DNA of 64,000 bases from Moniliella sp. 'wahieum' (Eukaryota). This document shows, piece after piece, positions 2,502 to 57,385 of the stretch. The notes below the pieces were generated by a model that was not told the origin of the DNA, did no database searches, and saw only the letters and a program-made list of their open reading frames with translations. Positions within the stretch are counted from its first letter, which is position 1, and each line of letters opens with the position of its first letter. The position numbers were made by a program, and so were the translations under genes. The stretch lies in the NCBI GenBank assembly GCA_003971905.1, contig RSEE01000067.1:186001-250000 (forward strand). The letters run 5' to 3'.

Positions 2502-3460
2502 TCACATGTACCCAGCCATCACATCTTCGAACGTGGGCTTGGGTGGCGACGGTTTGGATACCGAAGAGGCCGGTTCGGACGCGGGCTTTGGCGGTGCAAC
2601 CGACTTGTGATTCGCATCGACCAAGCCACCAATAATGAGGGTGCGCAGGGCAGTGCCGGACAACTGGATGGGATCCTCTAGTATCAGTATCTACTCTTCC
2701 ATTTGATAGCGAAGGGAGGACGTACAGGTTCAGCAGTTTTGGAGGGGGCAGCCTTTGTGGGTGCAGGGATCTTCTTTTCTGAAGGAGGAGGGCCGTAAAG
2801 TGTGGCCACGCCACCCTGCGGGGGCTTGTACGTGCCCGTCGGGGACGACGCTTCGCCCAAAAATGCCAGCACGTCGCCCTTGGTCAGAATGCCATGGATC
2901 CCAGTGCCCTTGATCTGCGAGGGGTCCGAGATGTTTTTCTCCACCAAGAGACGGGCGACAGAGGGGAGGTACGGCCGAGGAGGAGGGGGCTGGTGTGTCG
3001 CGGCCTCGTGCGCCACGGACGGTGGCCCTGCTGGGGCAGAAGCAGGTACAGAAGCCGAGGCCGGGGCTGAGGCAGAGGCAGAGGCAGAGGCAGGCGGGTT
3101 TTCGTCTTTGGGCATCTCGATCTTGGTTAAATCGTCCCCTTCCTCGGCGAGCAGCGCAATGATTTGGCCCACAGGAACGTCCTTGGTCCCGTTGGGAACC
3201 AGGATCTTGGCCAGCACACCATCCTCGGGCGCTTCTACGTCCATCGCTGCCTTGTCCGTCTCGATGTCCAGCAACACATCGCCCTGCGCAAATGCCTGAC
3301 CCTCCTTGACCTTCCATTCGGCCAGACCGCCTTCGGTCATGGTGGGACTCATAGCGGGCATGGCCATCTTGGTAATGGCCAGGGGGGCAGGTGTGGTGGA
3401 GAGGGGGCGGGTGAGGCGCGGAGCCAGCCGCAGAACACGGACAGAGAGGATGCTAGCCAT
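2502..3460 (-). CDS. PDX1: Pyruvate dehydrogenase complex protein X (E3-binding protein): mitochondrial presequence, lipoyl domain, E3-binding domain, short C-terminus
   Basis: MPAMSPTMTEGG...IETDKAAMDVEA lipoyl domain; LPSVARLL...IKGTGIHGILTKGDVLAFL PSBD; intron ~2678-2725 (GTACGT..CTAG); no acyltransferase catalytic domain. Confidence 0.85.
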
Positions 3461-3936
3461 GGCGGCGGAGAGGGAGGTGAGGCGCGCCGGAAGGAGGGGC
3501 AGGAGGAAGGCGAGGAGGTCCCATCCAATATCCCTTGGGCGGCCCCCGAAGATGATCGATGCGATTGGGCATCTAACACACGCGACAAACTTGGACCGGC
3601 CGGCTGGGGCAGCTGGCCGTCCCAACCGAAGCACCGCGCCAGTCTGCCCCGTTCCTCCTGTGCCCACGCACTTCCGCCGCGGTGTTTGTCAGACACGGCA
3701 CGGGCGGAACCAGCGGCCTAGGTTTCAATCTTTTAGGGTAGGAACCCCGCTCGGGCGCTCAGGCGCTCAGGCACGGCGCCGCATCCTCCTCAACAATACC
3801 CACTCGACGGAGCAGATAGCAGAGGGAGCTAGCCTCCAACTAGTAACTATACTTGGACGTTGGAGCCCCCGTCCCATCCCACCCTGAGCGGCCTGTCCGT
3901 CTGGGTGCATTTCCAAAAAGAGGTTGTGCAACCAAG

Positions 3937-4152
3937 TGTTGGGACCCGTGGTCCCGTACTTAGGCCAAGGCGCCTCATCACCCTTCACCCCTGATTTGTC
4001 CTCCGAAGCCTCCACGTGTATACTCAGGCTTGTCTGAACCCCTGTCTCTAGGTGTGGCACAAGGCTTAGACCTAACCACCACCATCGCGATTGCATTGCT
4101 CTACATTTCCAGAGGTTCTTCACCCAATCCCTTGGGTTCCTCCGGTCTTACA
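3937..4152 (+). repeat. 5' LTR (216 bp)
   Basis: TGTTGGGACC...GGTCTTACA; identical by eye to 9595-9810. Confidence 0.97.
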
Positions 4153-4222
4153 GAGTTACAATCCTCTTGACGCTCAGCCCTGAGCCTTCCACTCTTACAC
4201 TCTTCCAATCTTCCACCCACCC

Positions 4223-5772
4223 ATGTCTTGGGTCAACACCTACCTCCCCCCTGTGGGCGCAGCAGCGCCCAACGCCGACGCTGCCGCCCAACTGCTGTCG
4301 GATTACCAGCAAGTCTACAACATTCTACTTCGCAATGCCACTCCCACCCAGAGAGATCCGAATTCCGAATACATGGCCCAGCTCACCGTGTGCAACAACC
4401 ACATGGACTCCCTCACCAAGTTACTACTCCGCTACCGCAACGATGCCTCCGCTGCCGGCCCTATCCACAAGCGCTTGCTCGAACTGCGTAAGCTAATGGC
4501 AAGCATCATGAGCTCTCAGACTCAGGAGTCTTGGTTCAACTCCTCAACCCCTACTTCACCAACTGCCGCCGCAGAAGAAGCACCACTCCCGTCGGAGTTG
4601 ACCACGCCTCCCCGCCGCTGACACCATCGCGTGAATCTACCCCTACACCTCAACCCACCCCCGTGGGCCCCGACAACACCGCGAACGACGTCGCCACCCT
4701 CGCCGACCGCATTCGCAACATGTTCAAATTGTTTCCCGAACACATCACCCTCAAACAGCTACAGGACACTGGTATCAAGCTTGGGTACAGCGAAAAGACG
4801 ACCACAGAAGCCATTGTCATGTTATCATGTGAGAATCCACCCAATGCTAGCAAGAACGAAGGTGCCTTATCGTCAACTCCGGCCGTCGACGACAACCCGT
4901 GGGCTTTGACTCCCGACAAGCTCCTCCGTAGTGCCACTCGCACCAACGTGCCGTACCACGAGCGTTTCCACAACAACAGCTCGTTTTGGTTATGGACCCG
5001 GATCTTCCTCCCTCGTATCCAGATTATCCCTGGAGCGCGTGAGCATCTGGAACAGGGCAAGGCCCTGGACGGGTATAACGCAGAACTGGACGCTCACTTG
5101 GCCAACATTCTACTCCCGTGGATAGACTCCGACGTCGTCCAGCAGATCACCGGCGATGGCACGCCGGCTCTAGGGTCTGCATACTATCATGCTCTGCGTG
5201 ATTTGTACGGCACCGTTTCAGACACTGAGATCTGTGATATCCTCATAAAGGTTCTCACTCTCAAAATGGGCACCAAGTCGGGCCGCCAATACCTGAATGA
5301 GTTCACTGTGGCGGTAACCCAGTACGAGATGACGTCCAAGTCCAAGCTGGACGAGATTGGTCTAGCACAGATGCTACGGAAAGGCGTTACTGATCAGGGG
5401 TGGTTGCACCTCCATCGTAACAGCAGCTACGCCGAATTGCGCCGAGCAGTGAGCGAACTCAAAGGCTCCAACTACGGCAGTACCTCCAGTTCAAGCCCAG
5501 CTCCCTCCAGTACGGCCCCTTCGGAAGCCACGTCGCACAGCCAAACAAGCAGTACGGTGACAGGCCGCGGACGAGGCCGAGGTGGCAGCGGGTACAGAGG
5601 AAGTCACCGTGGTGGCCAACGTGGCGGCCACTTTAGCCGGCCGGCTACGACAGCCCAGACCACCTCATCTGCCCATGCAGTAACCCCTATGGCAGCCACT
5701 ACACCACCCGAGTCAGCCACATCGACTGAAACGGAGTCTGTCGTGTCCACAATCCCTCCTCACCCCTACTAG
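4223..5772 (+). CDS. gag: Copia gag-like protein, ending at UAG 5770-5772
   Basis: ORF 4223-4621 joins ORF 4531-5772 if one C is missing in the C-run near 4610 (gives TTPPPPLTP). Capsid-like helical region, then an RGG-rich segment (GRGRGRGGSGYRGSHRGGQRGG). Confidence 0.75.
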
Positions 5773-8700
5773 GACAGCGCGGGAGGCCCTAAGCCAGCCA
5801 ACCTCCCTGCGCAACACGATTCAGGTGCGAGACCATCCGTATTCAATGAACGAAGTGCGTTTATCAATCTTCGTCCACACCGCGAGCCCATAGCAGTGGC
5901 AAACGGACAGATCGCATACACTGAAGGCATTGGCACCATCTCTATGTACATTCAAACCCAGAACGGAGCCCCTATCCGCATCCACCTACCCGGCAGCTTG
6001 TACTGCCCCACCTTCCCGACCAACCTGCTCAGCGCTTACCATCTATCTGTCGCAGGCATTGGCAGCTGGATCCCTCCAGGTGGCCATGGTCTCTATCTCG
6101 GACGACACGGCGAACCTTTTCGTCTCGCCGCCGACTCAAGCTATTCCCTTACTCTGGCGCCCAATACGACAGCCACAGCCAACAGCGCCACTTCGCTACT
6201 CAACCTTGATGCAACCCTGGTCAAGGTGAAAAACGCCCACATCCGATGGAATCATGCACCTCTAGATCAACTTTCATCCCTCACGTCGGATGACCCAGCA
6301 TTCGAACGGGTCAACAGTGGCGACATCGCTTTAGTCCGGTCCTCGTGGCACTGTGCACCATGCGCATTAAGCAGAGCCACTGCCCCACCTCACGCCACGA
6401 CTGGACGCCCAATCCGAACCATTCGCCCTTTCTCTCTCCTCCACCTCGACGTCCTTGACATATCCCGCCAAGGCGGCGGGGGTCATACTTACGCCCTTAT
6501 CATTGTCGACGACTTTACGCGGTATACCTGGACGCTACCCCTGGTGTCCAAGGGTGATGCCACAGCCGAACTTCAAGCCTTCATCCGGCGCGAGCATCGC
6601 CAACATCCCGACCGCCCCCTTCAGACGGTCCGCTCTGACAATGCGCCTGAACTCACCACCGCAATGGACGAGTTTTACTGCGAGCTGGGAGTAGTGAGCG
6701 AGCGCACCAATCCTGGCGAAAGTGCGTCCAATGGGGTCGCCGAACGCGCCATAAGATCGATTACGGATCGCGCTCGACTCATGGTAATCGCCAACAGATT
6801 GACTCCCGACGAGTGGTGGGAACACAGCTTGTTGGCGGCCACATATGCACACAACCAGTCGCCGCCGAAAGCACTGGGTGGGGACAGCCGATTTGTCCGG
6901 TACCATGGCTTTAAACCCTCCCTTCGCATGCGCGGTTTTGGCACTCTTGCCTACCTGCACCTATTGCCCAACCAACGCGAGGGCGGCAAACTTGGTCCGC
7001 GGGCCGTCCCAGCAATGTTGGTGGGTTACGGGCACGGCCGCGGTTCGAAGGGGTGGCTCTTTGCCATCCACCAGGACGACGGCCAAGTTGGATTCCGTTG
7101 GAAAAAGCCGTCCACCTGGACACATGTCCCGTACACCACCGAATATCCCACGCACTTTCATCTGGACCCCCTTGTCCCTGCTGGTGGCGGAGAGGTGCGG
7201 GGGGGCGGAGAAATGGGTGCTGGTGGGAAGTCAGACAGCTCCCCACCCCGGCGTGTGCGTTTTGCGATAGATGAACTGACCCGCGATACTAATGGTAAGA
7301 AAGACAATGCCCCCCATGGAAAAAGAAAATTAAAAGAACGAAAAACAGAGGCACATCGCCCGGCTCAAGCCAACGAAAATGAGAATTCAGAGCCTGGCCC
7401 CACTCCCACCAACTCCAACCCCCCACATGTATCCCCCCAACCTGTTGCATCTGACCCCGCAGGCATGGCACAACGCGCAGGCAAAGCAAGCCGAAGAAAA
7501 TGAAACTATCACAGAAGATGCCGTTGACACTGGCCACCAAGTCCTGTTTTCCCCTCCCTCTTCCACTTCCCCTTCCTCTCCCGCCCTATCCCCCTCCCCT
7601 CTCTCCCCCACCGACACGCTCGCCCCCGTGACCGTGCCCCTGACCGATACAGCCGTCCCCGCACTCGTGCGTCGCAATCCCGTTCGCCAAGCGCGTATCA
7701 ACGCTCCACCCCTCGACTGTCCATTCCAGCCAACGACAATTTGCGCGATGGCACCTTTTCCCTGCTCGTCAACAAGGCCCCTAGCATCTTTGGCAACCCG
7801 GCCGCCCTCTCCGCCCTAGGAATGCAGGCTTTGGTGAGTATTTTCGGACCACGCCGGACACATCCATGCTACCTGCTTCGGAGCCAAGCTCGCCCCCCAT
7901 CGCACTCGCAATCGAATCCGCGGCAAGTGACACCGAGGTCATACTGACCACCGATGGGGTCCCGGTGGCCCCCAAGAACATCAAGAAGTTGGTGGGTCAC
8001 CCTGCCTTTGATGGCGTACTCGAGGCAATGCGCCTCGAGCTTCGGCGTTTTGACGAGCGTGACGTGAAGGAAGTTGTACCCATCCCCCCAGGGATCAAAC
8101 CCCTTCCCGGCATGTGGGTCATAGGTACTAAGACGGATGCGGATGCTAACTTCCTCAAGTACCGTGCCCGCTACGTTGTGGGAGGGCACCGGCAAGTTCC
8201 TGGCACATGGGCGAAATCTTTTGCTCCTGCCGTTCGTACTGCTGCCGTCAACACGCTAATTGCGTTGGCCGAAGCTGATGGCCTCCACTTATTTTCTGCC
8301 GATGTGGAAGCTGCCTACCTCTATGCCGATATCAACGAGCTCGTCTATGTTCGACCACCCCCCTTCTTACCAGAAGCGCCCGGTCATTGCTGGAGACTCA
8401 AGAAAAGTCTCTATGGCCTGCACCAGAGCGGGGCCAACTTTGGAGATTGGCTCCGCACTTTCCTTTGCGACCGACTCCACTTCACTAGCCTAAAATCAGA
8501 GCCTTGCCTGTTCATACGTCGCACCGAACCTCTTGGCCTGATCCTAATCGCCGTCCACACTGACGACTTTTTGGTCGCGTGTCGGTCCCAAGAAGCGTAT
8601 GATGAATTCTTAGTGGAATTAAGGCGCAGCATCCAAATTAAGTCCAACGGCCCCCTACGTTTCCATCTCGGCTGCCAATACGACCGTATCGATGGACGAC

Positions 8701-9530
8701 TGTACATCAGCCAACCCAAATTCATCGCTGAGACGCTTGCCGCGCATGACATATCACCTCACCGGCCCCGCTACCTTCCAATCGGCCACCAACTTCCGCC
8801 TCCCAAGCGACCCGAACACGAAAAGCGTGCCACTCGAGACGAGCACCGTGCCTACCGTTCTATTGTCGGATCCAGCTTGTGGGCGGCTCGTATGTCCCGG
8901 CCTGATGCCCTCTTTGCGGCTACCTTTTTAGCGCGGTTTATGGACGACCCGTCCGCCGCCCACCGACGCGCAGCGGAGGACCTATTACGTTTCTTCGCCG
9001 GTACGTCTGACTACTCTTTGTGCCTCACACCCAACCGATCTCGCCCTCTACTCGAGCTGCACACCGATGCCTCCTTTGCATCAGACAAGAGCAACTCTCA
9101 CTCCGTTTCGGGCCATGTTGTTTTTGTTTTCGGTGTGCCTGTATCCTGGGGCTCCAAGTCCCAAAATCAAGGTGTGAGCAACACAGCAGCATCTGAATAC
9201 CTAGCCATGGGAGATGGCCTTCGAGATGCTCTATTCATTCGCAACATACTGTTTGAACTTGGTGTCTGCAAGGCTAATCACCCGATTGAGCTCTTTGTTG
9301 ACAACACCGCTGCCAAAGCGTTGGCCGAAAAGCTCGGAAGCCTAGGCAAAATACGGGAGATTGACGTCTCGTACCACGAGGTGCGGGAACGCATCCACCG
9401 AGGCGAAATTAAAGTCCACTACACTCCAGGTGCACACCATCTCCCTGACTGGTTCACCAAACCTCTTTCTCTTCCCAAGATCATTTCTGCGCGTAACAAT
9501 TTCGATTTGGCTTCTCTTTCCTCGCGCTGA
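5773..9530 (+). CDS. pol: Copia pol (protease-integrase-reverse transcriptase-RNase H), in frame with gag; indels in the IN-RT linker
   Basis: PR HDSGA (D at 5818) ...VANG...GIGT; IN HIRWNH..CAPC, LHLD, VDDFTRY, RSDNAPE, NGVAER, GSKGW; RT YRARYVVGG, DVEAAYL, LKKSLYGLHQSG, HTDD; RH HTDASFA, SEYLA, VDN, PDWFTKPL. Confidence 0.93.
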
Positions 9531-9594
9531 TCCCCTTTCTACTTTTCTTTTGTTGATGGCCAACGGGCTTCTTTCGTTCCCTTGGCCCGGGGGG

Positions 9595-9810
9595 TGTTGG
9601 GACCCGTGGTCCCGTACTTAGGCCAAGGCGCCTCATCACCCTTCACCCCTGATTTGTCCTCCGAAGCCTCCACGTGTATACTCAGGCTTGTCTGAACCCC
9701 TGTCTCTAGGTGTGGCACAAGGCTTAGACCTAACCACCACCATCGCGATTGCATTGCTCTACATTTCCAGAGGTTCTTCACCCAATCCCTTGGGTTCCTC
9801 CGGTCTTACA
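9595..9810 (+). repeat. 3' LTR (216 bp)
   Basis: Identical by eye to the 5' LTR; followed by TSD CCAAG. Confidence 0.97.
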
Positions 9811-16085: not shown

Positions 16086-17006
16086 GTACCTCCTCTTACC
16101 TTGCTCTGTCTCTGTACCCTTTCTCTTCCGTACGATCACGTGAATCGTGCACCTGGCATTCGCTTCATTTTTCTTTGCTTTTGCTCTTTGCTCTTGGACT
16201 TGGACTTGATTGGCGAAACAGGTTGTACCTGCCTGGTGTCACTCATTGGTTTGCCTTATGACCTCGTCGTCCCCCTAATTTGGTTTGACCCATTACTTTT
16301 TTTTCTTTGTAATAGTTGGTTCAACAGCGACAGCTATCGTTGGTCCCTCGCTTCCTTATACAGAAGATGCATTGATCCCTTGGGAGCAAACGCGGGGGAA
16401 GAGATGCCGCACCCACCGGGGCCCACCTCGTTCACGGTAAAAGGCCACAACATGCCAGCCCATCGAAGACCAGAGAGGGAGAGATATATCTATTGGGAAC
16501 GCTATGTCAATCAAAAACCACGCTGAGAGGATTCTTTCTCCTCCTTTTTCCCTTCCTTTTCGGTGCTCTCGACATAAGAATTGCCTTCGACCAACTCTCG
16601 CTTGCCCTCGGTGGTGCCACACTGGTTAGTGGCGCCGATAGCCCAAGAAGCCCGGATCGTTACGGGTCATTCCTTCCAATATTCCTTCCTGCCAGAAAGC
16701 AGGAATGTTCCTCTCTATAGCCTTTTCTTATTTTCTGTTGCTCATGTGCAATGCAATACACACCATCAACTGCTTGCTCTCTGATCTTCTACACCTCCTT
16801 GCCCATCGCAATGATCCAGGCGTACGCGTTATTGCCTTCCCCTAACATTCCACCTCTATTTCGGCCGCTGTGTCAGGCTCTGCCCCACATGACCATCATC
16901 AGCAAGGCTCCCTCATCAACATCTGGTGACGACGAAGACCATCACCCGGCATTGCACGCCAGTGTTCCTTGGGTTTTGGATGTGAAAGGCGTTCGGTCTG
17001 TCGTCA

Positions 17007-19384
17007 TGTAACGCGTAACGCGTAATGCGTATAACGCTGCATGTAATAACTTGATGGGAATGGAAGGTATGTATTAGCACACCCTTCCAGAGGTGAATAT
17101 CCTTAGTATCCACATAGACTGAGAGAGAGTCGTATAATGTGGCAGGTGACATGTGACATTGCCGTGTATATGCGCAGATTATGATTTGGTGCCGTTATAT
17201 CGCAACCCAGACAGGTGCGAGGTAGATGTAATGCAAGACATGTGCATGTGAGGACTTGGCGATTAGGTGACTAGCGGCTCTGCTAGTGACTAATGAGTAC
17301 TGAGTAGTGATTATAGTGATTAGTGACTAGGACAGTAGCGATTTCTCTGTCGAAAGTGAGACGCCATGACATGTGACGTGTAACAGATCATCGTGATCGC
17401 TGTGTGGGTGGCAGCAGCACAAAGGTCGATAAGACAGTAGGAAAGGTGTGGCGGCTATTACTATGGCATGACGTACTTGAGAGCTTGAGGCTTGAAGCTT
17501 AAAATTTGGCATGTTGTACTGTCTGACAGCGAAGGAGAAGAAGAGAAGAGAGAGAGCGAAATAGGTGAGGGAATAAGGACATTGGTTGTCCTTTTTGCCG
17601 TTCCATGGCTCCGCTACTTCTGTATCCACAACCTCCTTGCAGCAAGTGGCGTGAAATCCTATTGTGTTGGATCAGAGGATGAGTTGCGATAAACGAGAAG
17701 GGGGAGACGTCCGTCGGCCGGGAGACGGAGATTGAACTCACCTTCGAGAGGTCATTATGTGAAAAGTGGCTATCTCTTCTCAGCTTAAGCTTCATTCGAG
17801 AACCGTATAAAGCTTGAAAAGGCTCCTGATGGAAGAGAGATCTACTCCTACATCCCGTAGAGAGAGGGAGTAGGATACATGTGAGTGTGGTATGATGGCG
17901 GTGTACATGGTACACCGACAATGCGTAGGAGCTACAGTCCTCAAGCTGCAGGCTACTATAAACCAACGGGAGATGACATGGATGACTCTACACACAAAAA
18001 TGGGGGCCATGGTGCGTGACGTAACGGGATGGTGGATTGAAGCGCACCTCCAAGCCCCCAAGTCTCGCATTCTCCGTTCTCGATTTTTTAGAGGGTGACA
18101 TGTGACAGTGACATGCGGCACACAGTACTTCTCCTAAGGCCTAAGGCCTAAGGCCTAACCGGTAACCTGATATACAGTCACATGCACAAAACAGAATTGG
18201 GCGTGATGTGACGACATCTGACATTTGTTCCGCAACATGTACATGATGTGTACGTTGCTGTTATTATACCGAACCTGATAGTAGCTGTGTGTGCTGTAAC
18301 CACGAAAAGTCACTAGTCACATGTCACATGTCACAGCTGCTCGTAATCTGGAAGTCTGACAATGACCTCACACCTGTTGTAGTATAGCCGACAAACGTTA
18401 CGCAAGAGAGGTCTACTGTTTTGGGCCGCGCCAAAATAAGGGGAGGAACCGCTATATTCCTGGCTGTACATTTGGGGTGGTTTTGTTCCGTCGGGAGCAA
18501 TTTATTCAACACCATGTTGGGGTCGCGAGACTCGAGACGTTTCCCCGACTGCTAACTTGAGGTGATGCCGTGAGATGGAATGGACGAACAGGCCACATAT
18601 TAAGTTGGGCCTTGAAGCTTGAAGCTTGGAGCTTGATCTTTAACATTGACGTGTGTACTGTGTGAGATGGACGCCATTTCACCTGCATAGTAGCAGATCT
18701 CAGGGATCTCAGTCTCATATACACCTGTCACAGGTGTCACATGCCAGGTCCTGAGGCCTCAGGGCTCCACCTGCAGATGTATGCCGGTGAGACTTCTGAT
18801 CTCATCTAAAGATCTAAATCCTTTTCCTCAGGGTGATGGCACTGAGACCTCCAGCCACAGACGTATATCTTCCGACAAATGAGATCTTCGATGGAGGGAG
18901 AGGAAGGATCTTAATGGAGATCACACACATTTTCTCGGCCCCTACATTCATTGTATCAGAGGATGCGCTTGGCGCTGATGCATGATGAGGTTGATGTGAT
19001 GAGAGGCCGCCGCAATGGGGCTCAAGCTTCAAGCTTCAAGGAACCCCCACCAAATTTCGTCAATGCATTGTCATATTATTTCTTCTCCCCAGAGATTCTC
19101 AACTTATATCTTTATGACTCGTGACCTTCCGGTGGTCTATGCACGAGTCACGTATTCTAGAAGGCGATGCTGTGGTGTAGATCAATAAGTACTGAGTTTC
19201 CCATCGTTAGAGGTGTGATCCTTTTACAACTTATACACAGTCATATGTTCTACTATGTCATATCCCATTTCTTATTGTCATACTCACACACTCACACGAT
19301 CATCGTGCTCACCCTGAGCGATGGTTGTGAACGAATGATGTGTATGGCTCCCTGAACGCGTAACGTGTAACATGTAAGGCCTCA
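17007..19384. repeat. Cluster of TNA-[4-bp palindrome]-TNA heptamer arrays
   Basis: Examples: 17007-17027 TAA/CGCG; 18133-18167 TAA/GGCC x3 then CCGG; 18308-18335 TCA/CTAG, CATG; 18613-18636 TGA/AGCT; 19022-19040 TCA/AGCT; 19354-19384. Confidence 0.85.
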
Positions 19385-20319
19385 ACCTTTCCGTTTCACC
19401 GCGTGCGGAGCCTATGATATAACTGTGCCAGCCTCCGTTGATCTACGTTCTCATACGTCACGGTTTGGGTCTCTCTTGGGTAATAGCCGCCGATGGTTCC
19501 CCGGTCCATATGGTCCACTGTGTTTCATGAAAATTTATGTGGTGAGACGAAGTAAGCCGGTGGTGGCTGGTGTGGTGGGCCGACGAGATGGACCATGCAC
19601 GTTGGGCGTAGCATCACTGGGGATGAAAGACGAAACTGGGAATGGAAGGTGTCATCGGGAGGGTCACTAATGCGGCGAACCTTTTGATCCGGTGGGCGCC
19701 GTGGCAATGCAGCGGCTTGTGCTGTTGCTACCCGCCCGCGTGCATGTGTTTTGCATATGCTCAACCGGAACCCCCAACCGTGGGCTTTAGCGTTGCCTCC
19801 ATCCGTTGTTCTTGAAGTGCTGATGGAAACTGCGGGGATGCCTGCCGCGCCCCCATCCCGCTCACACAAAAGAGTGTGTAAGAGGGAGCACTGTCCATAC
19901 ATGGGTTCGAACAGTTGGATGCCAATTCCTGCAGAGACTGACCCTGCAGCTTCGCAGGTAGAGTTGGAGGCTTCCGACACGGCTGAGTGAACTACATATG
20001 TTCGGTAGGCTGATGTCGCTTGTTCACGATCTGGAGGCCCCAATTAGGTCGCCACAATGGGCACACGGAAGCAAGAGCATCGGCTGTGGAGGGCGATGGA
20101 CCCACGAAGTGGCCCTCAAGCTCTTTCTCCATCCGTCATCAAAGAAAGGTCAGGTGGATGGAACAAGAAGTGATAGGACTCAATAAAGGAGCATATCTGG
20201 TTGATCAGGTTCGGGTACACCAGGGAATCCGTCCTTGGTTCGTCCCAAAAGGTTAGTGAGGAAACTGCAACGCTTCTGCGGAACAGAAAGAGAAAGAACT
20301 GATGCGACGGTTGGAGCAA

Positions 20320-20640: not shown

Positions 20641-21224
20641 CGAACAACTGCAGTTAGTATACCCGAGAGATAAGAAGCAGGTATATAATAGGCGCAACGT
20701 TTCTTGGTCCTTGTTCAAGTTCCTCTGCAAATGCTAATGCAACAGGCTGAGTTTCTTCACGGGCCTCTTAGCTGATCAGGTATACCATCTCAATGCTCTT
20801 CACTGTTGATCCTGTTCTCCTTCCCTCTACCAGTGCATTTTTTGCTTACTTCCCTCCGTACTTGATTTCACACACGCATCGCCCGACCTTTACAATGAAC
20901 ACACTCATTCTAGTAGGACTGTGGAAAGTGTAGAAGAAGAGTCGACGCTCAACGTTCAACCAATATAGTGAATCCGTGGGGGGATGGACAAAATGCATCC
21001 GTGTATGGGGTTTCATGGATTTTACTAGAGGATCACCGGGGCTACGGCCCGGCGTGTGTTCTAGGCCCCACCGTTCCTCCTTTCACTTTTCCCCCGTAGC
21101 CACCGTTCCACACCATGTCCTGATTTATCGGCCATGTAGCCCCTGGCAGCGCTGACGCGGCACTTGAAGTGGGTAATGCGCCGAAGAATGGAACCCACAT
21201 ACATCCCTCTCTATATCTTTATTC

Positions 21225-21590
21225 AGAATGCGACAAGCCAAGTACCAGGGACGCACTCAAGAGCCGTTTCCCCCCCTGGTTTTGACGACGCGAGGATACT
21301 ACGGCACCAAGACGGCGAGCAAGTTGTTTGCGCATTGGAAGGAGTTGGCTACTATGTCTCAGTGGAAATGGTTCCTCGCTCGGATGTCAACCACGTTCCT
21401 CCGTGTCCACACGCGCTTCCTAGGGTACGGGACCGGATGGCGTGAGCCGGAGGGTCCTGATATCCTGGCGATCCCCCTGGTTCCTTGACCCTGGTGGCGC
21501 CCCCAAGTATAACTCCCGCAAGATGAACGGTTAATAGGTTTAGACGTAGCGTTCCCCCTGTCCCAGCCTTAAGCTCTGCCAATGAAATGG
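21225..21590 (+). mobile_element. Decayed 3' fragment of an RLE-type non-LTR retrotransposon (copy A)
   Basis: Clear nucleotide homology to the reverse complement of 41354-41725, including the 3' UTR; translates KYQGRTQEPFPPLVLTTRGYYGTKTASKLFAHWKE..WFLARMS. Confidence 0.7.
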
Positions 21591-22349
21591 ACGTGTTCTA
21601 GGTTCCTTCGCCCTGGTGACTATATACACTTTTTCTCATTCTCATATATATATACTTACCCGCATTCAAAAGTATAGGTCTTCCACCTTGTCCATTGGTT
21701 TTGCTCTATTGGTTGCTTCATTGGTTATGTGATCGATCGGAAGCTGACGGATATCTTATCCACCCCCACTGTACTTGCTCGGACTCCGACTCATAAAGCA
21801 ATGGGGTCTTCATCTCCTATGTCCGCCTAAGACAATCGATACTTGTTATACTGCGTAACAAGTCGCCACAGGATGTATAGATCCAATTACAGGGCATGTA
21901 TTGCCTACACACTGACTGATGTGCTCATTGATGAAAGTACGGTGCTACGGCAACCCCAGAGACTCGCTCAACCGTGGTGTGTGAAATGCATGATACATGT
22001 CCATGGCTCTCTCCCCGCAGAGGCAAATCTCTTTTCGTGGTCAGGGCCTCCATTGAGGAATGCTTTAGAATGTGGTTCGAGCTGCGTGCGCTTCAACGTC
22101 ATGCAGGGACTAGCGTTGAGCCGCATACTATGTTGGACATTGGTGGCGGCGTTTTGAAGGGGTGTGTGTATGTGATGGGTATGACCATCGCATCTCCCAC
22201 CGGCCCATCAACTGGTGAGGCTGAGGCCCTCAGGGCCACTGTTTTGTAACTTGAAGTCCACCGGCTGCCGGCTCCTTATAAATCCCAAACATCGTCTCAC
22301 GGGGTGGATCGCTCGGTTTTATCGCAGGCAAAAAAAATCATTTGTTCAC

Positions 22350-25345
22350 AAAACGTCTTAGGCCTTAGGTCTCTGTAATACACGATTTTTGACCAACCGG
22401 CGTTGCCCCCAATGCGGTGGTCTACCCAGTACGGTGGACTATAATCGGTTTTGCTGAAGACTTCAAGTAACCAACTGCTTTGCCATATATCCCATCCTCG
22501 AATCTGAGTTGGGGCGAAGCCCACAACGATATAATTATGTACAGTGTGATTAGTAGTGACTAATAGTCACTAACGACCACCAAGTAGTGGTCACTGGTCA
22601 AGGACTGAAGACGATTGGGGCTACCGGTTTAGAATTCGCGTATCTCCTCCTTCGTTAGGCTAGTGTAAAGACGTTGGGACAGGCACAATAATATACATCC
22701 CCTTGTCCTTCATGTTATTGTATCTTCATCCCCTTCGAAATGTCTCTCCCCCAACCATCTGCCGGCAGAGATTGGCAATTGTGCATTCGATAAGCAACTC
22801 AATAAGCCGAATAGGCCATGCAGTTCCACTCTCAAGGGCTGGCAGGGCTTTTGTGTGGGGGGTAAGTTCTGCTCCACAGAAGAGGTACCTGGGGTACCTG
22901 AGGGCTGCCACACTGACCACACCAACCGCGCACTGAAGAGATCCACAGCTTCCAAGCTTCAGCTCCCCCAGGCCTCCTATTCAGTGTGCAAACATGCCTG
23001 CGGGTATGCACAGTATATATGCCAGTTGCAGGCCAATGATTAATGATCGCTCACTGTACGGCCACTGCCTGGATCGCAAGTTGGTCGTCACAGTCACTGG
23101 CTACTTCGAAGTCAGTAGAAGCGTTTACATGTTCAAGCGTTAATGCATAATGCCGGACTCGAGATCTGCTCGACCACTGGGGTCCTAACCTAATGCTAGC
23201 CATCTGTTCCGCCTCTGTTTCCCCTGACTGCATCCCCCCACTTGCCCCCACAACTTGGTGCTACTGGCATTAGCACTTGGCGCGTAGCGCTCATTAGCGC
23301 TTTCTTTTCGTGTGTCGCACTTACTATTCTGGGCAGCACAACCCACAACCACGTGCCGAAAGCTCCTAAGGCCTAAAGATCATGCATGGCCCTTATGACG
23401 TACGCGTTTCCGATCGACCACTCGGTCATGCATCCTGCCCCAGGCACTAGGCACCATAGATCATCGATCACCGACCATTAATCATTGCAGGATACGCGTC
23501 ACATCGCCGGCGGGATTCCAGGTATCACTGACAGACACGCTGAGTACTGATCGCAGGACAAGCACGTCACGTGTGTGATGCATGTGATGGCACAGGCCAC
23601 GCGCTGTTGCTCGCCACCACCCAACATGCAATCGATGTGGCAATCTATGACATGCTGTGTGCACAGAGTGCCAAGTAGTAAGTACTCAACAACTGAGTAC
23701 TGAAGGTACTGAAGCTTGAAATTGAATAAACTGAAGTTGAAGTTGAAGCTTGAAGCCGTACCATAGCTATACTGAAGCTTGAAGATGGTACCCGCTAAAA
23801 ACCGAGCGCCTCCACAAATCTTGGATCAATCCTTGACACACCTGGGTGATCGACGGTACCGCAGAGAGTCTGGCCAGGGCAGCGATCCGGCCGTCTCAGA
23901 ACTTATAAAATACGTGCATGCTCAGTGCGCTCAGCTCAAGTTGAGCCTCAACGCTCGACGTCACGCGTCAGTAATCGATAATCATTCTTTTGGTCCGCCT
24001 GTGCATGTCGTCCATACGGCGTTTCAAGCGCCTCTTCAGGAGCTTTTGGAGCTTGGAGAGCTGTGGCGCATTGCAAGTGACATGCATGTGACGCGCGTGA
24101 CATATGATGGCATCCATGTGATCTGGACGCGAATAGCAGGCGTTTTTTTAGGTACGAGACCCGAGAGATTGTGACGTTTTGTAGGTGTGATTTGGGGATT
24201 ATGCATGGGTGTAACATGTAAACGTTAACGTGTTACATGTTAACGTTTAACGTTTAACGTTCAACCCGCCCAATGTTGGTTGGCGCGCGGTTGAGACGCG
24301 TTGACGGGCTGATGTTGAAGGGGTAAAGCTGTAAATTTAAAGGTGTTGAACGTCGACGTTTTTTTATACGCGGTTAACACGCCGGTTACACCAGTTACAT
24401 GTTACACCAGTTGTACATATGGCATGGTTGCCGATTCCAGTTGCACGACTCCGGTGGCGTTTTGAACGTTGAACGTGTTGGACGTGTTGATCGAACGTTG
24501 AACGTTGAATATATTCATCGTTGATGCATTGATGCATGATGGCGACGAAGGGGGCGGATATATGATGCATGGCGTCCATGGTGTGCATGGTGGCGGAGTT
24601 CGGAGAGTTGTGAGAATGTGAGATCTGGGAGGAAAGCGCACAGGTACGGTGGCGACTGGGAGAAAAGTATCGAGCCTCGATTGAGTGGCCATCGATCAGG
24701 TCCAGGCCTCAGGCCTCAGGCCTCGTAACGCGTAACCGGTAACCAGTAACTAGTAATAGTAACCAGCAACCCTCAGACTGGGGCTCTAACGGGTAAATCT
24801 TAAGCCAACAACAACGGGCACAACCAAGTACATCTAAACACAAACTGGCTTCAAGCTTAACATAGCTTAACTAAGCGATTAACCAGCATGGGCAATCGGC
24901 ACGCGTCATGCGTTAGCGCACTGTGTCACACGTAGCGTCACCGAATCATTAATCACCGAGCCACCGGGTCACCGGTCACCGGTCATCGGTCTTCGGCCAC
25001 CGGGCACCGGTCAGGCCGGTCACCGGTCACCAAAGCCAATCTATTCAGTCACAACTTGTGGTCACCGTCCACCGTTGCCACTGATGGCGGGATGGGATCA
25101 ATTCGATCCATGTCAGTACGTCACGCGTCAGTACTCCGTACACTCAGGATCCATTTCGCAATGGCACGTTAGAGCGGTGCTGGGCGGTGCACGCGGTGCT
25201 CTGGGGTGCTGCGAGCTTCGAGACAAAGGAAAGTACGTAGCGCAGATAATCGATGCTGCATACTGCAGACGCAGTCTTAGGACTTAGGACTTAGTACTTA
25301 GTGCTGGTGCATGACATGCATGACATGTGATGCACAATGCATGAT
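22350..25345. repeat. Dense cluster of TNA-[4-bp palindrome]-TNA heptamer arrays upstream of the cyclin gene
   Basis: 24212-24263 has 8 TNA in perfect 7-nt phase; also 24689-24762, 24944-25030, 25277-25345, 23367, 23461 and 23694-23782. Confidence 0.88.
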
Positions 25346-41353: not shown

Positions 41354-42200
41354 CCATATCATTGACAGATCGTAAGACTGTGGGACAAAGAAACGCTGCG
41401 CCTAAACTGATCCGTTCATCCACAGCGCGTGCTGCCTACAAACGCCAACCCCATTTATGGAACCAGGGGAATCGCCAGGATATCAGGACTCTCTGGTGCC
41501 CGCTATCCGTTCCAGTACCCGAGGAAAAGCGTGTGGATAAGGAACGTGATAGACATCCGAGCGGTGAACGATCTCCATTGGGTGTCAAGCAGTCAAATAT
41601 ACTTCCAATTCCCAAGCATCTTGTTCGCTGTCTTGGTGGTATAGTATCCTCCCGTCGTCGAAACCAAGGGGAAAACGGTTCTTGGGTGCGTCTCTGGTAG
41701 TTGGTGTAGTTCTTGTCGCATTCTGCTTGCTCCAGCACCCGAAGCAGCTCCTTCTCCTGGCGTTCCAAAGTCGTCGCGGTGCTCTCATGTACCACCTTCC
41801 GGTACACGGCCTGCGCCTCTTGCTTTCCCGTGTCGCATAGCGTGTGGTACACCTCCATTCCTGATCCTCCCATTGCTCCAGGCCCCATCACGCGGTAGTC
41901 AGCGCGCATTACCTTCCTCCTGCGCCTCGTCCCATCCTCTTCCTCCACAATGGGCGCATTGTGGACGTGAGTGTCGGGGATGGAGCGCACGAGCTGCAGA
42001 ATGGGCACCCGCACTTCCTTATGCAATGCAACGCACCAAACTTGGCCTGGGTGCGGGTGCAAGCCATGATGTGCTCAAGCAAGGACACGACGCCGCACTT
42101 GCACATACTGCGCGTGGAGCGGCATAGCGTGCGGAGATGGAGCAGGCACGGTGCGGATGGAAGGCAGGAGAGCCAAGTGTGGCATAGCGGGTTGCTGTGC
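41354..42200 (-). mobile_element. 5'-truncated, decayed RLE-type (CRE-like) non-LTR retrotransposon fragment (copy B)
   Basis: WLSCLP..HLRTL..CKCGVVSLLEHIMAC (CCHC knuckle), HKEVR, RADYRVMGPGAMGGS (RLE R(P/A)D motif), EPF.PLV.TTGG..W; homologous to 21225-21590. Confidence 0.7.
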
Positions 42201-43319: not shown

Positions 43320-44079
43320 GGCGGCAACAAGACAGGTCGAGGAGCAGAACAGCAAGCAAGCAGCACACTCACTGGCTCTGCCAGCCCCATCCCAGCTACG
43401 CCAGCCGGCCCACGCCCACTCTCACTCGCCCACTCGCCCACTCGCCCACCCGCTTGCTTATTACCCAGCTCCCCCCGGCGCAGCCCGACTGCGCCCCATG
43501 CGCGGCTGCCCAGACGGGCGCTGCCAGCTGGCGCCCGGTCGCAGGGGGGCAGCCCCACCGTGCGTTACCTAACCCAGCGCAACCCTAGTGCTTCTGCGTG
43601 CAGCCCTAGTCGCATTAGTAGTCCGTGACTTGTGAGCGTGAGCGCTGTGCTGGGCCGGTGATCGATGATCCTGGCGTGGCCTGTGCACATATGCCCCACC
43701 CTCTCTTGCAACAAAAACGACACGGACACAAGCAGGTTGCTAACCACGGGTGCGCTCAGCACCGCTCCTCACGCCGGCTCCGCCCCAATGGGTTTCCCTC
43801 CCTTGGCCACAATGCCCTTTCATCGATCATCCGCTCTCCGTCGCCGCGTTGCAATGGCACTGTACCGTTTCCTCCCCCCTCTCTCGGGTCCCATGTCCCA
43901 TGTATTACCTGTGGTGCAACGGTTAGTGTAGTAGCGAGAGGGGTTAGCTAACAAATTCTACAGTATTCCCCTTTGGGAATGAGTTGGGGCGGTCCCCATC
44001 GCTCGGATTGACAAAACATACCCAATCCCCGGCTGTCGATAAAGAGAAAAGATCGAAGGCACACTAGAACACGGCGAAG

Positions 44080-44240
44080 GTGCTGCAGAAGACCAAAGAG
44101 CACAGGCAGTTGACGGTGTGTAGTTGTGCATTGCACAACAGAGGTTAGAGAAAATCTTGCCCTCCAGGAGGGAATGTCCGACGGAATGCGCCCAAGGGAA
44201 GAACCGGGGTTAGGCCACCGAGCGTGGCACCATCCATGTA
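44080..44240 (+). repeat. Diverged dispersed repeat, partner of 55945-56120; possibly the CCHC region of a non-LTR relic
   Basis: gaagaccaaagagcac..gcagttga..gcattgcac..acagagg..agagaa..tgccctccagga.ggaat..taggccac shared by both copies. Confidence 0.6.
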
Positions 44241-45089: not shown

Positions 45090-47070
45090 TCTCTCGTAAC
45101 GCGTAACGCGTAACCATGTTAGCATCTGAGATCTGATGAAAGACTGGATGAACCTGCCAGTGCAGAAAGGAAATCGCCGGATGCACCTCACTACGGCCTC
45201 ACGCGCACGGAAGAGCTGGCCAGGGCTGACCGATAACATGTAGCACCCCATATGCAGGGCCTCAGTAGTACTTGATGCCAATAATTAATGAGGCCTGAGG
45301 GCCTGAGGAGACGTTAATGATGTTCCTTAGTATTGCGGGCGGGCAATATAATGATCGACAACAATTAGTAACCTAGTAACCAACTAGTAATGTAGCAGCG
45401 AGTGTGGCTCCAGTGGCTCCATCATATTGCGTGCAGCATATGCCGTGTGTGGAGCAGAATCCCTGTATAGTCACTAGTTACATGTCAAGCGTTGCGCTTT
45501 ACGCGCGTTACGCGTTACGCGTTATGGAGACAGCTGCATCACATATCGCGGTGGCGCCGTAGTGGTGTTAAATTGTTGGAGTGTGGTGGCATGTGGCACC
45601 ACTTGGTGTGATGGCTTGATGGGCCATATCACTGCCAAGCGGACCTGGCTATAGAGTTCCGCGACTCGCCCACTCCGGATTGGGTACCGTTCGCCCTCGT
45701 TCCCCTCCTTCCTCTTCTCCTGTTGCATGAAGGTTGGACTAGCGTCAGTACCGTCAGTAGCTTGCGCGAATCTGACTGTTCCAACCCTGCACAGTGCAAT
45801 CGTCCTTAGCTTGGTAGCGTAGCTACTTCTCAGTTAAACGTTAACGGACAACCGCGGTTCTGGGCTCTCCCTAGCACTTCCCTAGCACCGGTGAAACCGC
45901 GATTTATCGCGCTCACCCATTGATCGCCTACAGTCTAGTGCTTCGCCTAGCCCTCATTCTTTCATGGTAGCTACCGAGCATCTTGGCCGGCTTCAAGATT
46001 GAAGCGCTTCACGCTTCTCTTTGTCGGTATCTTTTTCTGCTTTTCTTTTCAAATGCGATCAGGAATGTTGAACGTTGAACATGGTGAAGTCGGGGGGAGC
46101 TGAGACGCTGAAGAGACAACTGACGTGGGGGAAGGAGATGGACGGGGAAGGAGCTTTTGGGCCAGCTCAATCGGCTGTGACATGTGTGACATGTGACTGA
46201 TCGCACAGGTGATATCTATACTGGACGAGACGTCCACACGGCCGATAACATGGGGACCGGTGAAATGGCATGTGCCCCAATCCACAGACTGGGGTTGACG
46301 CGTGACGTTGATGTTGTGCATGACGGCCTCGGCCAGCGATGTAATAGATCTGCAAGAAGTCCATTTCGGGGGCTCGATTTGTTGCTGGGCAGGAAACGCA
46401 GCGCGCGCGTTACCTTGAGCTATCGACTATCCTTCTACCCCTGGCCTTATTGTCCAGCAAAGCGCACTGGAACACTGTGCAGCCACCACACAGGCGCCCT
46501 GCCGCTGCGCGGCCGGATGCAGTAGGGTTGCTCAGTGATCGTCACCCCTGGCACGGGCGCAGTGCATGGGGGCTCCTCTTCAACACGGCTACTGCCCCAT
46601 CGATGATGCGTGGTGGCCATGACGTGCATGACTATGCGTGGGCGAGGGGAGGCAGACGCAGACAGCAGCGCCGCCGCCCCCACATGTGCCCGCATGGGCC
46701 CGCTCCCACTGAGTCCTGACGACGTACCGAAGAGAGGAGCAGCTCAGGCTGCGGAGCCGCTGAGGCGTGGAGCTTGAGGAGCACTCGGGAGCACCGCGCA
46801 CCTGAGCACTCGCTCGCACCCCGCCTTGGCCTGCCTTGGCGGCATGCGTTGTTGTCCCGCTGCCCCCGCCCACCCGCCATGCACCACTTGCCCCGTGCAG
46901 CCTGGCATGGGCGCTCAGCAAGGGTCCAGTGTGGGTGTCTTCGGCACCCTGCATGCGGCGCCCTGCCTCCTGGCGCAGCACCTGCCCCATCCCCGCCGCC
47001 CGCGCATGAGACAGGCGCCATGCTGGCGTGGCTGCCGCTGGATTCCTGGTTGATCGATGATCACATTGAC
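45090..47070. repeat. Cluster of TNA-[4-bp palindrome]-TNA heptamer arrays upstream of the sedolisin gene
   Basis: 45097-45113 TAA/CGCG; 45280-45300; 45471-45524; 45835; 46069; 46178; 46296; 47051. Confidence 0.85.
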
Positions 47071-55259: not shown

Positions 55260-57385
55260 TCGTTGAGCGCTCAGGCGTCAACTTGAACGTTCAGACGTTT
55301 GAACACTGGCCCAGTTCGCGAGATGATCGATGATCTGGCAGCCACGGCGTGCTCGTATGTTTGGTTTTCGGTTGGCTATTCAGGTTATTCCGGTTACCGG
55401 TTATTGGGGTTCTCCCTATGTTCTTCCTGGCTCTCCCCTTGCCGAGCCTCAGGCCTCAGGAACAGCCATCTGCGGCAGGGGGACACGTGCCGGATAGGTA
55501 TTGTGGCTTTCCCTGCCTTTCCACATGTGGATAGGAACGGATACTAACCGAGTGTCCCCTTTTCTATGCCGAACACACCACGAGACACCCTGAGATGTGG
55601 CACCCTGACACACCTCGCGTTCCCTGCAACGGGTGCAGTGCCTGCCAAGTAGCTGTTTTATGCATGTCACACACGAGGGTGCCTCATGTGGTGCATGATG
55701 CACGATGCATGATCCTGATACACACGTGGCAGGAACTGGAAGTTGCATTGGGTAATCCACGGTTAGGTAACCGGTTGTGCAGTCATGCATCAGGTATCAG
55801 GCGCTACGCCAGCCAAGAATCCTCATCGACCATCGACCATCCACGTGCGTTTCCAACCATGTCGACCTTGCCTGGGTGGATATCGCCACCCCCCCAATTT
55901 CTCCCTCGTGTCGGCATATATAGGCCCCTTCGATGGTGAGTGTGTCGGCGTAGAAGACCAAGAGCACGCAGTTGATGCTGTATTGCATTGCACATGAGCT
56001 ACAGAGGCCAGAGAAGATTTCTGCCCTCCAGGAAGGAATATTGGAAGGAAAATGACCCGGCTTGCTACCGGCGCCACTACACCAGTGTAGGCCACAGCTG
56101 GACAAAACTGTGGCGCGATGGCGGCAACCGCCGAGTTCAGCGTTAGGTGACCGACCGGTCGCCGTTGATGCTGATGCTGATCGATGGTCGATGGTCGATG
56201 GTCGATGAAAAGGTGTGCACAACACTTCTTTCCGCATCACATACTTCAGCGAACGAGCGATGAGGTGACGAAGGTGTCGACCACCGAATTCATTGCAGGC
56301 CTATAACACACACATTCAGCCGAAGACGTTCTAAACGTTGAGAATGTTTGCTGGGCATACTGAACTGCCGTGTACAACTACAATTCGGGGTTGCCCTGCT
56401 GATAAGATCGTTCATTTCGACGGCGTCGGGGACATGGTTGTGAAAAGGGATTGTTTGTTTGTGTGGGCTCGTGAAATTGAGATACAGATGTTGTTGAGGC
56501 ACAAATGTCGACGCCTGCTGAACATGTGGAACAGGTTGAACGTTGCATGTGATAATGGCACTGACGTTGATGTTCACGCGCTCATCACGTTGACCACGTT
56601 GACTGTCGTTGACCACGCCGTACACACGCGTATCCCCTTCAATGTTTTTGTTACCTCACATCACATGGCGCTTGTGGCTCACAATGCTCACGCAGGCTTA
56701 CGCTCACAACCCATTTTTGCCGAACAACTGAGTATATCGTCGCTCGCCGAGTCTCCTCCTTTGCGGCTGGTTGCAACAAGTTAATGACTTTTACACACGG
56801 AGCTAACTCGGTCCGCACCCCCCCGGTTGCGGATTTGCCGAGGGAAGGGGGCTTAGTACAGAGGAAGCGGGTGGCCATATGGCAGAAGATGGTGGCTCTA
56901 TGCCATCTGGTCGTATCGATCCCAAGGCCTGATGCGACGCGACAGCCTCCCCTGAACGTTGAACATCAGACCTTGCATCTCAGGCTGAGAATCGTAGTCG
57001 GCCTCTCCCTGGTTTTTTCGCCACATTTCAAAATGAGCAGGTGCCAGCAGGTGCATCACACGTGCCACATGTCAGCACTGTCAGCAGGCTGTACGAAGTC
57101 CCCTGGTTCGGATGCGTTGCAATTGAAAGTTTGCATATGTCGGCGTTTCCAAGGGCAGCAAAGGATCATAGCACAGGGTTATATGCAGACGGCGTTACTA
57201 TAGACACGAAGAGGCCACCCCCCCCCCTGTGTCGAAGTGGGTCTCGTTGTAAGGAGGCCATGGTGCCACCAGCACAAGAATTATGGACGCTCTTCCCACT
57301 GGTATTCAGCTGGATATAGCTGGGGTGGCTGTGAGGCCGAGGATGAAGAGTGTGTAGGCCATTGATGAGACATAACGCGTAACGC
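55260..57385. repeat. TNA-[4-bp palindrome]-TNA array cluster
   Basis: 55264, 55284, 55324, 55394, 55449, 55692, 56178-56208, 56953, 57373. Confidence 0.8.
55945..56120 (+). repeat. Diverged dispersed repeat, partner of 44080-44240
   Basis: See 44080; shared blocks in the same order. Confidence 0.6.

What the first reader, a model, noticed from the sequence alone, without database searches (positions are those of the whole stretch)
18133..18335. Hybrid arrays show the palindromic filler is copied from the local flanks
Seen: CC-TAA GGCC TAA GGCC TAA GGCC TAA CCGG TAA-CC (18133-18167): left fillers derive from the left flank CC and the right filler from the right flank CC. AG-TCA CTAG TCA CATG TCA CATG TCA-CA (18308-18335): CTAG comes from left AG and CATG from right CA. 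The same holds at 45280 (AA-TAA TTAA TGA GGCC TGA-GG) and 24231 (TG-TTA CATG TTA ACGT..TCA-AC). The ancestral sites collapse to CC-TAA-CC and AG-TCA-CA. This argues against fixed transposon termini as the filler source and against pure slippage, and it implies several independent events at one site.
Basis: seen in the sequence. Interest (0 to 1): 0.75.

Follow-up and report, generated by a model that had tools for sequence, protein, structure and literature searches.

The report
Transposon excision scars, with their transposon
The small palindromic 7-base repeats between the genes of this smut-related fungus are most likely scars left each time a CACTA-like jumping gene with an unusual 7-base target duplication landed and then cut itself out through DNA hairpins; the second chromosome copy shows sites before and after, including a scar where such an element still sits in the other copy.

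Summary
The four cited arrays read as stated. The window holds 110 TNA-palindrome-TNA units against 8.4 in shuffles, and 91 have a filler copied from a flank. Mixed arrays run left-then-right 13 times, the reverse once, and 12 are unassignable.

The assembly holds a second haplotype. Of 40 clean 7-bp indels, 29 fit the rule and 19 of these are not tandem copies. The two predicted ancestral alleles are absent there.

Following a lead from earlier scan notes, I found a young family of about 4.9-kb elements with EnSpm-like remnants and CTCACTG ends. Five of 7 two-ended copies have a perfect 7-bp NN-TNA-NN duplication. At one insertion site the other haplotype carries the rule's scar.

Best model: insertion, excision through flush flank hairpins as in RAG/Transib, opening 2 nt past the tip, and end joining that keeps one 4-nt overhang. 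The chemistry is inferred. No intact transposase was proven, and the scars' flanks are broader than this family's targets.

The scan noted this pattern and such elements before on other pieces of this genome. I found no paper describing it.

The parts
18133..18167 (.). Hybrid array on target CC-TAA-CC: three left-derived fillers, one right-derived
   Evidence: other haplotype has one left unit and an irregular junction
18308..18335 (.). Hybrid array on target AG-TCA-CA: one left-derived, two right-derived fillers
   Evidence: other haplotype has one more 7-bp unit
24231..24265 (.). Hybrid array, one left and three right fillers; the other haplotype has the right-only intermediate
24724..24744 (.). 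Hybrid array whose left filler follows a flank difference between haplotypes (flank CG with CGCG here, flank CA with TGCA there)
   Evidence: all three differences are CpG-type transitions, so decay is possible
24944..24957 (.). Single left-derived scar; the other haplotype has the single empty target
43657..43670 (.). Same target GG-TGA-TC in both haplotypes: right-derived filler here, left-derived filler in the other
45280..45300 (.). Hybrid array, one left and one right filler; first core is TGA in the other haplotype
23697..23712 (.). Example of the +9 class: full 7-bp direct repeat with 2 inverted bases between
   Evidence: 44 such junctions against 0.2 expected in 394,808 bases, both strands
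16900..19400 (.). Scar-rich stretch holding the finding; no Pfam match in the two ORFs of it that were tested
   Evidence: density per 2 kb; Pfam
22300..25330 (.). Densest scar cluster of the window

Best explanation
Each unit is the excision scar of a cut-and-paste DNA transposon of the CMCT (EnSpm/CACTA-Transib) clade that inserts at NN-TNA-NN and duplicates 7 bp (XY-TNA-ZW). Shown: the insertion rule, the before and after alleles, and elements with this duplication. Inferred: on excision the transposase seals each flank as a flush hairpin; a Pso2/Artemis-type nuclease opens it 2 nt 3' of the tip, giving two palindromic 4-nt 3' overhangs, one from ZW and one from XY; end joining aligns the two overhangs and one survives, giving +7 with a right- or left-derived filler at equal rates. 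Less overlap gives +8 or +9. Repeated visits, with some slippage, build arrays that must read left fillers first.
For: Left and right fillers are symmetric: 73 and 70 of 342 fully informative junctions, 130 and 129 single-type loci. The +9 class keeps the whole 7-bp repeat: 44 against 0.2 expected. Even palindromes number 492 against 2.8, hAT-type odd ones 20 against 8.2 (both strands). Haplotype indels peak at 7 bp (40 clean, against 15 at 6 and 10 at 8); 29 of 40 fit the rule, against 180 of 20,000 random local inserts. One target shows both outcomes in the two haplotypes (43657). Five full-length copies are 99.2-99.75% identical, younger than the 3.1% haplotype split. 18 of 19 TIR ends abut NN-TNA-NN, against about 4% of positions (15,642 TNA in 394,808 bases). 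The other haplotype has the single 7-mer at C35 and C20, and a right-derived scar at the C29 site. The element has EnSpm-like remnants. An SNM1/Pso2-family match exists. Pso2 and Artemis cut 2 nt 3' of the apex (PMC3299998, passages).
Against: No element of the family lies in the window, and none turned up among the large indels of about 184 kb of paired haplotypes. Thousands of scars stand against about 6 long copies. No intact transposase was shown: the family's coding remnant is broken in all copies, has no Pfam match, and its Atlas recognition score is under the tool's threshold. The family's targets are narrower than the scars' flanks: TG, AC or TC at 12 of 14 half-sites against 27% (p 7e-6), so this family alone did not make them all. 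The C29 copy is too young to predate the haplotype split, so the scar there probably needs a second visit to the site. Two of 7 two-ended copies have unmatched flanks (C11, C38). 43 of 342 informative junctions are plain 7-bp tandem copies. I found no paper showing flank hairpins for EnSpm itself.
Confidence: 0.78

Rival explanations
1. Same scar chemistry but another agent: other 7-bp-TSD transposons (hAT7, Kyakuja), older extinct relatives, or a domesticated enzyme. The CTCACTG family shares the target but makes few of the scars.
For: Scar flanks are broader than the family's targets. hAT7 and Kyakuja make 7-bp duplications in basidiomycetes (PMC12730594, passages and section 3.1). Diverged ends with other flanks exist (C12, C15, C38).
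Against: No match in this genome to the hAT, KDZ, Plavaka, PIF or MULE Pfam families (for the first three the control genomes did not ring either, so these are weak). hAT palindromes are centred on one base (PMC5873905, passages) and are rare here. The C29 site links the family to a scar.
Confidence: 0.13
2. Replication template switching or templated end-joining at T-N-A microhomology: the polymerase copies 2 nt from the opposite strand and restarts 5 nt back.
For: It yields the +7 product on paper and needs no element, which suits the scarcity of elements.
Against: It gives no reason for a fixed 2+5 geometry, for the +9 class with a full 7-bp repeat, or for elements with the same 7-bp target.
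Confidence: 0.05
3. Ordinary slippage plus point mutation of 7-mer microsatellites, possibly kept as protein-binding sites.
For: 10 of 29 rule-fitting indels are tandem copies and 2 more tandem 7-mers lack a TNA core, so slippage occurs and probably extends arrays.
Against: 19 polymorphisms insert inverted bases at sites with no prior repeat. All 16 possible palindromic fillers occur across the two samples. 157 of 277 unit records are private to one haplotype under the strict rule.
Confidence: 0.02
4. Mariner-type or PIF-type footprint: a 3-bp TNA duplication with 2 bp left from each element end.
For: It gives TNA-NNNN-TNA with a palindromic filler, because the ends are inverted repeats.
Against: The filler follows the flank in 91 of 110 units. 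The element found begins CT and ends AG, which would give only one filler, and it duplicates 7 bp. No PIF-family match.
Confidence: 0.02

Closest known systems
V(D)J coding joints and Transib excision (RAG1/Transib, CMCT clade)
   Same: Hairpin on the flank, blunt element end, opening by Artemis or Pso2 2 nt past the tip, palindromic P nucleotides (PMC12337333, PMC3299998, PMC5499845; passages).
   Different: 7-bp target centred on TNA (5 bp for Transib, recalled); a very uniform +7 product; inherited and abundant.
EnSpm/CACTA of fungi (CNIRT6 of Cryptococcus with CACTG ends and 3-bp TSD; CNEST; rust EnSpm, ESTA, Plavaka)
   Same: CAC(TG) near the end, inverted ends with subterminal repeats, Tnp2/DUF4218-like remnants (PMC12810828 passages).
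   Different: Ends carry two extra bases (CT-CACTG) and the duplication is 7 bp, whereas the clade is described with CA..TG ends and 2-5 bp (PMC12730594 section 3.1).
Ac/Ds and other hAT footprints, including hAT7 of rust fungi
   Same: Target duplication with P nucleotides from flank hairpins; hAT7 has a 7-bp duplication.
   Different: hAT palindromes centre on one base and the footprints vary; here they are even and uniform. No hAT family match found (weak).
MULE (Muta1)
   Same: Flank hairpins on excision (PMC5499845, passages).
   Different: Over 90% precise excision in yeast (same paper); no MULE match in this genome.
Kyakuja (KDZ) of Laccaria
   Same: 7-bp duplication in a basidiomycete.
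   Different: No TIRs there; no KDZ match here (weak).

Membership tests
Excision footprint of a flank-hairpin transposon | Duplicated target with palindromic bases copied from the flank | tested here: met
Excision footprint of a flank-hairpin transposon | Single empty target in an orthologous allele | tested here: met
   19 non-tandem polymorphisms; not met at the two focal sites
Excision footprint of a flank-hairpin transposon | An element with the same duplication exists and its sites show the scar | tested here: met
   5 perfect 7-bp duplications; scar at 1 of 4 orthologous sites read; C34 has no partner found, C23's partner is deleted there
Excision footprint of a flank-hairpin transposon | Hairpin intermediate and excision observed | not testable with these tools
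   no sequencing run was listed
EnSpm/CACTA (element G000:C34:500340-505284 and copies) | Terminal inverted repeats with subterminal repeats | tested here: met
   78-bp TIR at 90%; repeats
EnSpm/CACTA (element G000:C34:500340-505284 and copies) | Ends begin CAC or CA | tested here: not met
   ends begin CT-CACTG, fixed by empty alleles
EnSpm/CACTA (element G000:C34:500340-505284 and copies) | 2-5 bp target duplication | tested here: not met
   7 bp against PMC12730594
EnSpm/CACTA (element G000:C34:500340-505284 and copies) | Tnp2-type DDE transposase with C(2)C and H(3-4)H motifs | tested here: inconclusive
   two weak profile segments, E about 4e-6 in a small set; Atlas first hit named DUF4218, 0.95; no Pfam match
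hAT / hAT7 | hAT transposase | tested here: inconclusive
   PF05699: 0 matches, control did not ring
hAT / hAT7 | Palindrome centred on the base next to the element | tested here: not met
   20 odd against 492 even junctions
PIF/Harbinger or mariner-type footprint | Short duplication with a fixed filler from the element ends | tested here: not met
   filler follows the flank
Slippage microsatellite | New units are tandem copies of adjacent sequence | tested here: not met
   19 of 29 are not

The most novel reading that the evidence does not exclude
An undescribed CMCT lineage cuts 2 nt further out than EnSpm on both donor (CT-CAC ends) and target (2+3+2 bp). A few non-autonomous copies hop almost without gain in number, driven in trans by a lone transposase gene without matching ends, such as G000:C34:513-517 kb if its frameshifts are assembly errors. 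They have left thousands of RAG-like coding-joint scars and so act as a standing mutator that writes new palindromic hexamers into intergenic DNA.
Probability: 0.2. Interest if true: 0.85.

Novelty: new variant of a known kind. Interest (0 to 1): 0.66.

Why it matters
It would give sequence evidence that an EnSpm-like lineage excises with RAG-type flush hairpins, and would add a 7-bp target to a clade described with 2-5 bp. It turns an apparent repeat grammar into a countable record of transposition: at least one event per 200-300 substitutions, about 3,600-5,500 since the two haplotypes split (my extrapolation to a 35-Mb haploid genome). It shows that a few mobile copies can reshape intergenic DNA and seed tandem repeats while leaving almost no elements. 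It also offers a natural dataset on hairpin opening and on joining of mismatched overhangs in a fungus.

Tried and rejected
Own-genome Pfam searches for hAT, PIF, KDZ, MULE and Plavaka found nothing; for hAT, KDZ and Plavaka the controls were silent too. Scans for TIRs with 7-bp TNA duplications in the window and early loci found only scar arrays or chance pairs. Two repeats in the window are not the source: the 21224-21596 family and the solo LTR at 55947-56088. The Tnp2-like locus on C17 is fixed in both haplotypes and decayed, with no TIR. A 5-bp off-centre duplication was rejected because the +9 class keeps 7 bp and inverted bases from the TNA side are 8 times rarer (32 against 264). My first test for hAT-type junctions was faulty by construction and was redone. 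The right half of the flank logo is shifted by two positions, and I did not use it. No sequencing run was listed, so no reads were laid. No relatives of the element's protein were found among longer proteins or in metagenome contigs. Of 98 matches to TNA-NN-CTCACTGA (72 for the reversed control), I read 30 as loci and 10 more by fetching; most were chance, and the rest were not read. The own genome could not be searched with a transposase profile, so diverged intact copies may be missed. Paper searches showed no description of this pattern or of a 7-bp EnSpm; the library lacks most subscription papers, and I read no supplements (those of PMC12730594 list termini and duplications and may bear on novelty).

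Full report
Setting. The window is G000:C67:186001-250000 of a 69.5-Mb assembly in 223 contigs. It is eukaryotic, with malic enzyme, a copia element, a helicase and GCN5. The best named GCN5 hits are Malassezia and Meira, so I infer a smut-related basidiomycete. The species was not determined.

Observation. The four cited arrays and three exceptions are correct. There are 110 TNA-palindrome-TNA units against 8.4 in shuffles; 91 have a filler derived from a flank (42 left, 30 right, 19 both), and 19 match neither. TNA is the core in 96 of 135 junctions of this geometry. In 394,808 bases, mixed arrays read left-then-right 13 times, the reverse once, and 12 have an unassignable unit.

Grammar. 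Write the target as XY-TNA-ZW. The main product is +7, with a filler made of XY and its inverse or of ZW and its inverse. Among 342 junctions where the two can be told apart, 73 are all-left, 70 all-right, 43 plain tandem copies and 4 the reverse hybrid; the rest are partly or wholly unassignable. A +9 class keeps the whole 7-mer twice with 2 inverted bases between (44 against 0.2 expected). Even palindromes (492 against 2.8) far outnumber hAT-type odd ones (20 against 8.2) (both strands, array units counted singly). The unit of duplication is therefore 7 bp centred on TNA. After a left-type event the first copy is a palindromic target that can only repeat its filler, while the second is still the original target. 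Arrays must therefore read left fillers first. A hybrid needs two events; further copies may be re-insertions or slippage. Thirteen hybrids against 1.3 expected under uniform use of TNA sites show strong hot spots, part of which is simply exclusion from genes (inference).

The allele test. Contig C57 is colinear with C67 over the stretch compared: 184,393 aligned bases with 3.1% substitutions. I read it as a second haplotype. Clean indels number 10, 15, 40, 10 and 9 at 5 to 9 bp; 74 seven-base gaps were seen in all, and I kept the 40 with matching flanks. Of these, 29 fit the strict rule, 19 of them non-tandem (11 left, 8 right; 10 in one haplotype, 9 in the other), and 11 do not fit. At 43657 one target carries the right filler in one haplotype and the left filler in the other. 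At 24231 the other haplotype is the right-only intermediate. At 24724 the left filler follows a flank difference, although CpG decay could mimic this.

The element. None lies in the window or among the large indels of the paired region. Earlier scan notes mentioned 5-kb elements with CTCACTG ends and 7-bp duplications. Searching my loci for that end led to G000:C34:500340-505284: 4,945 bp, 78-bp TIRs at 90%, and the same NN-TNA-NN 7-mer on both sides. A TIR search gave 19 ends, and 18 abut NN-TNA-NN. Five of 7 two-ended copies have a perfect duplication (C34, C35, C29, C23 and a 378-bp copy on C20); C11 and a short copy on C38 have unmatched flanks. The five long copies are 99.2-99.75% identical. 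Their indels are mostly private, and 56 of 66 are 1-2 bases, which I read as assembly errors. The family is thus young and mobile in its ends, not simply dead as the earlier notes put it, though its coding remnant is broken in all copies. Partner alleles show the single 7-mer at C35 and C20, a different continuation at C11, and a right-derived +7 scar at the C29 site. With a background of at most 2.4% per site, one scar in four sites is supportive but is a single case. The C29 copy looks younger than the haplotype split, so a second visit to a favoured site is the likelier history (inference).

Affinity. The element has two weak segments of a profile built from 28 full-length EnSpm-like proteins, an Atlas first hit named DUF4218 at 0.95 with a recognition score below the tool's threshold, and no Pfam match. 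It works like a CMCT element but fails two EnSpm criteria, the ends and the duplication length, so I do not file it as EnSpm. A separate single-copy gene 8 kb away (C34:513-517 kb) follows the same profile from position 82 to 708 of 967 across three frames. It is a candidate enzyme source, but it is only distantly like the element's remnant (34% over 35 residues) and has no matching ends.

Mechanism. Insertion duplicates 7 bp (shown). Excision leaves flush hairpins on both flanks (inferred from even palindromes, by analogy with RAG: PMC12337333, passages; hAT, Transib and MULE flank hairpins: PMC5499845, passages). Opening 2 nt 3' of the tip, as measured for Pso2 and Artemis (PMC3299998, passages), gives two palindromic 4-nt 3' overhangs; a DRMBL match exists in the genome. 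Joining with full overlap, by ligation across mispairs (ligase IV tolerates them: PMC3547747, passages) or by trimming one overhang, leaves either filler at 1:1. Less overlap gives +8 or +9. Ac/Ds palindromes centre on one base (PMC5873905, passages), which does not fit.

Limits. The family's targets are narrower than the scars' flanks (12 of 14 half-sites against 27%), so older relatives or other agents made many scars. No excision was observed. Only about 0.4 Mb of 69.5 Mb was scored for scars.

Known or new. hAT7 and Kyakuja have 7-bp duplications, and the CMCT clade is given 2-5 bp (PMC12730594, passages and section 3.1). CNIRT6 has CACTG ends and 3 bp (PMC12810828, passages). Repbase also lists hAT families with 7-bp duplications (PMC4455052, passages). 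Ten paper searches showed no report of this pattern. This scan had noted both the pattern and the elements on other pieces of this genome and shows no look-alike stretch in other genomes. Added here are the haplotype test, the family census, its young age and the scar at an element's site. Verdict: a real feature and a new variant of a known kind, interest 0.66.

Noticed in passing
window 3936-9810: Copia-type retrotransposon with two identical 217-nt LTRs, absent from the other haplotype, so a very recent insertion.
   Followed up: partly
window 21224-21596 and 41354-42142: Abundant repeat (781 first-look candidates) with a shared 3' end near CTAG and variable 5' ends; the 21.2-kb copy is absent from the other haplotype. 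Class not settled.
   Followed up: partly
window 55947-56088, 16619-16795, 44087-44186: Short solo-LTR-like repeat with TG..CA ends; a 5-bp duplication is seen at one other copy.
   Followed up: partly
G000 C67 against C57; also C17/C62, C35/C46, C29/C53: The assembly holds two haplotypes about 3% apart; 782 clean 1-bp indels in 184 kb, 513 in homopolymers, suggest long-read errors that break ORFs.
   Followed up: yes
L121:542-5390 (C11:228241-233089) and L126 near 2883-3055 (C38): Elements whose two flanks are different NN-TNA-NN 7-mers, pointing to rearrangements at element ends.
   Followed up: partly
L087:3259-6872 (C34:513259-516872, minus strand): Single-copy EnSpm-like transposase gene, colinear with the profile and frameshifted; a possible CAC..GTG end pair with a 3-bp duplication at L087:1854-6747; no partner haplotype found nearby.
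   Followed up: partly
L099:4340-9284: Ends are CAC plus two extra bases and the target is TNA plus two bases each side, as if the cut register were shifted outward by 2 nt on donor and target (speculation). The C29 copy carries two rule-fitting units inside.
   Followed up: no
window 17009, 24726, 45097, 45508: The CGCG filler creates ACGCGT, which I recall as the yeast MCB cell-cycle box; scars could create binding sites. Recalled label, not tested.
   Followed up: no
L055 (C57:294689-294940): A 250-bp insertion in the other haplotype with a 7-bp duplication that is not NN-TNA-NN and an end in CTAG.
   Followed up: no
C67:142876-148034: A tandem duplication of about 3 kb present in C67 and single in C57.
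   Followed up: no
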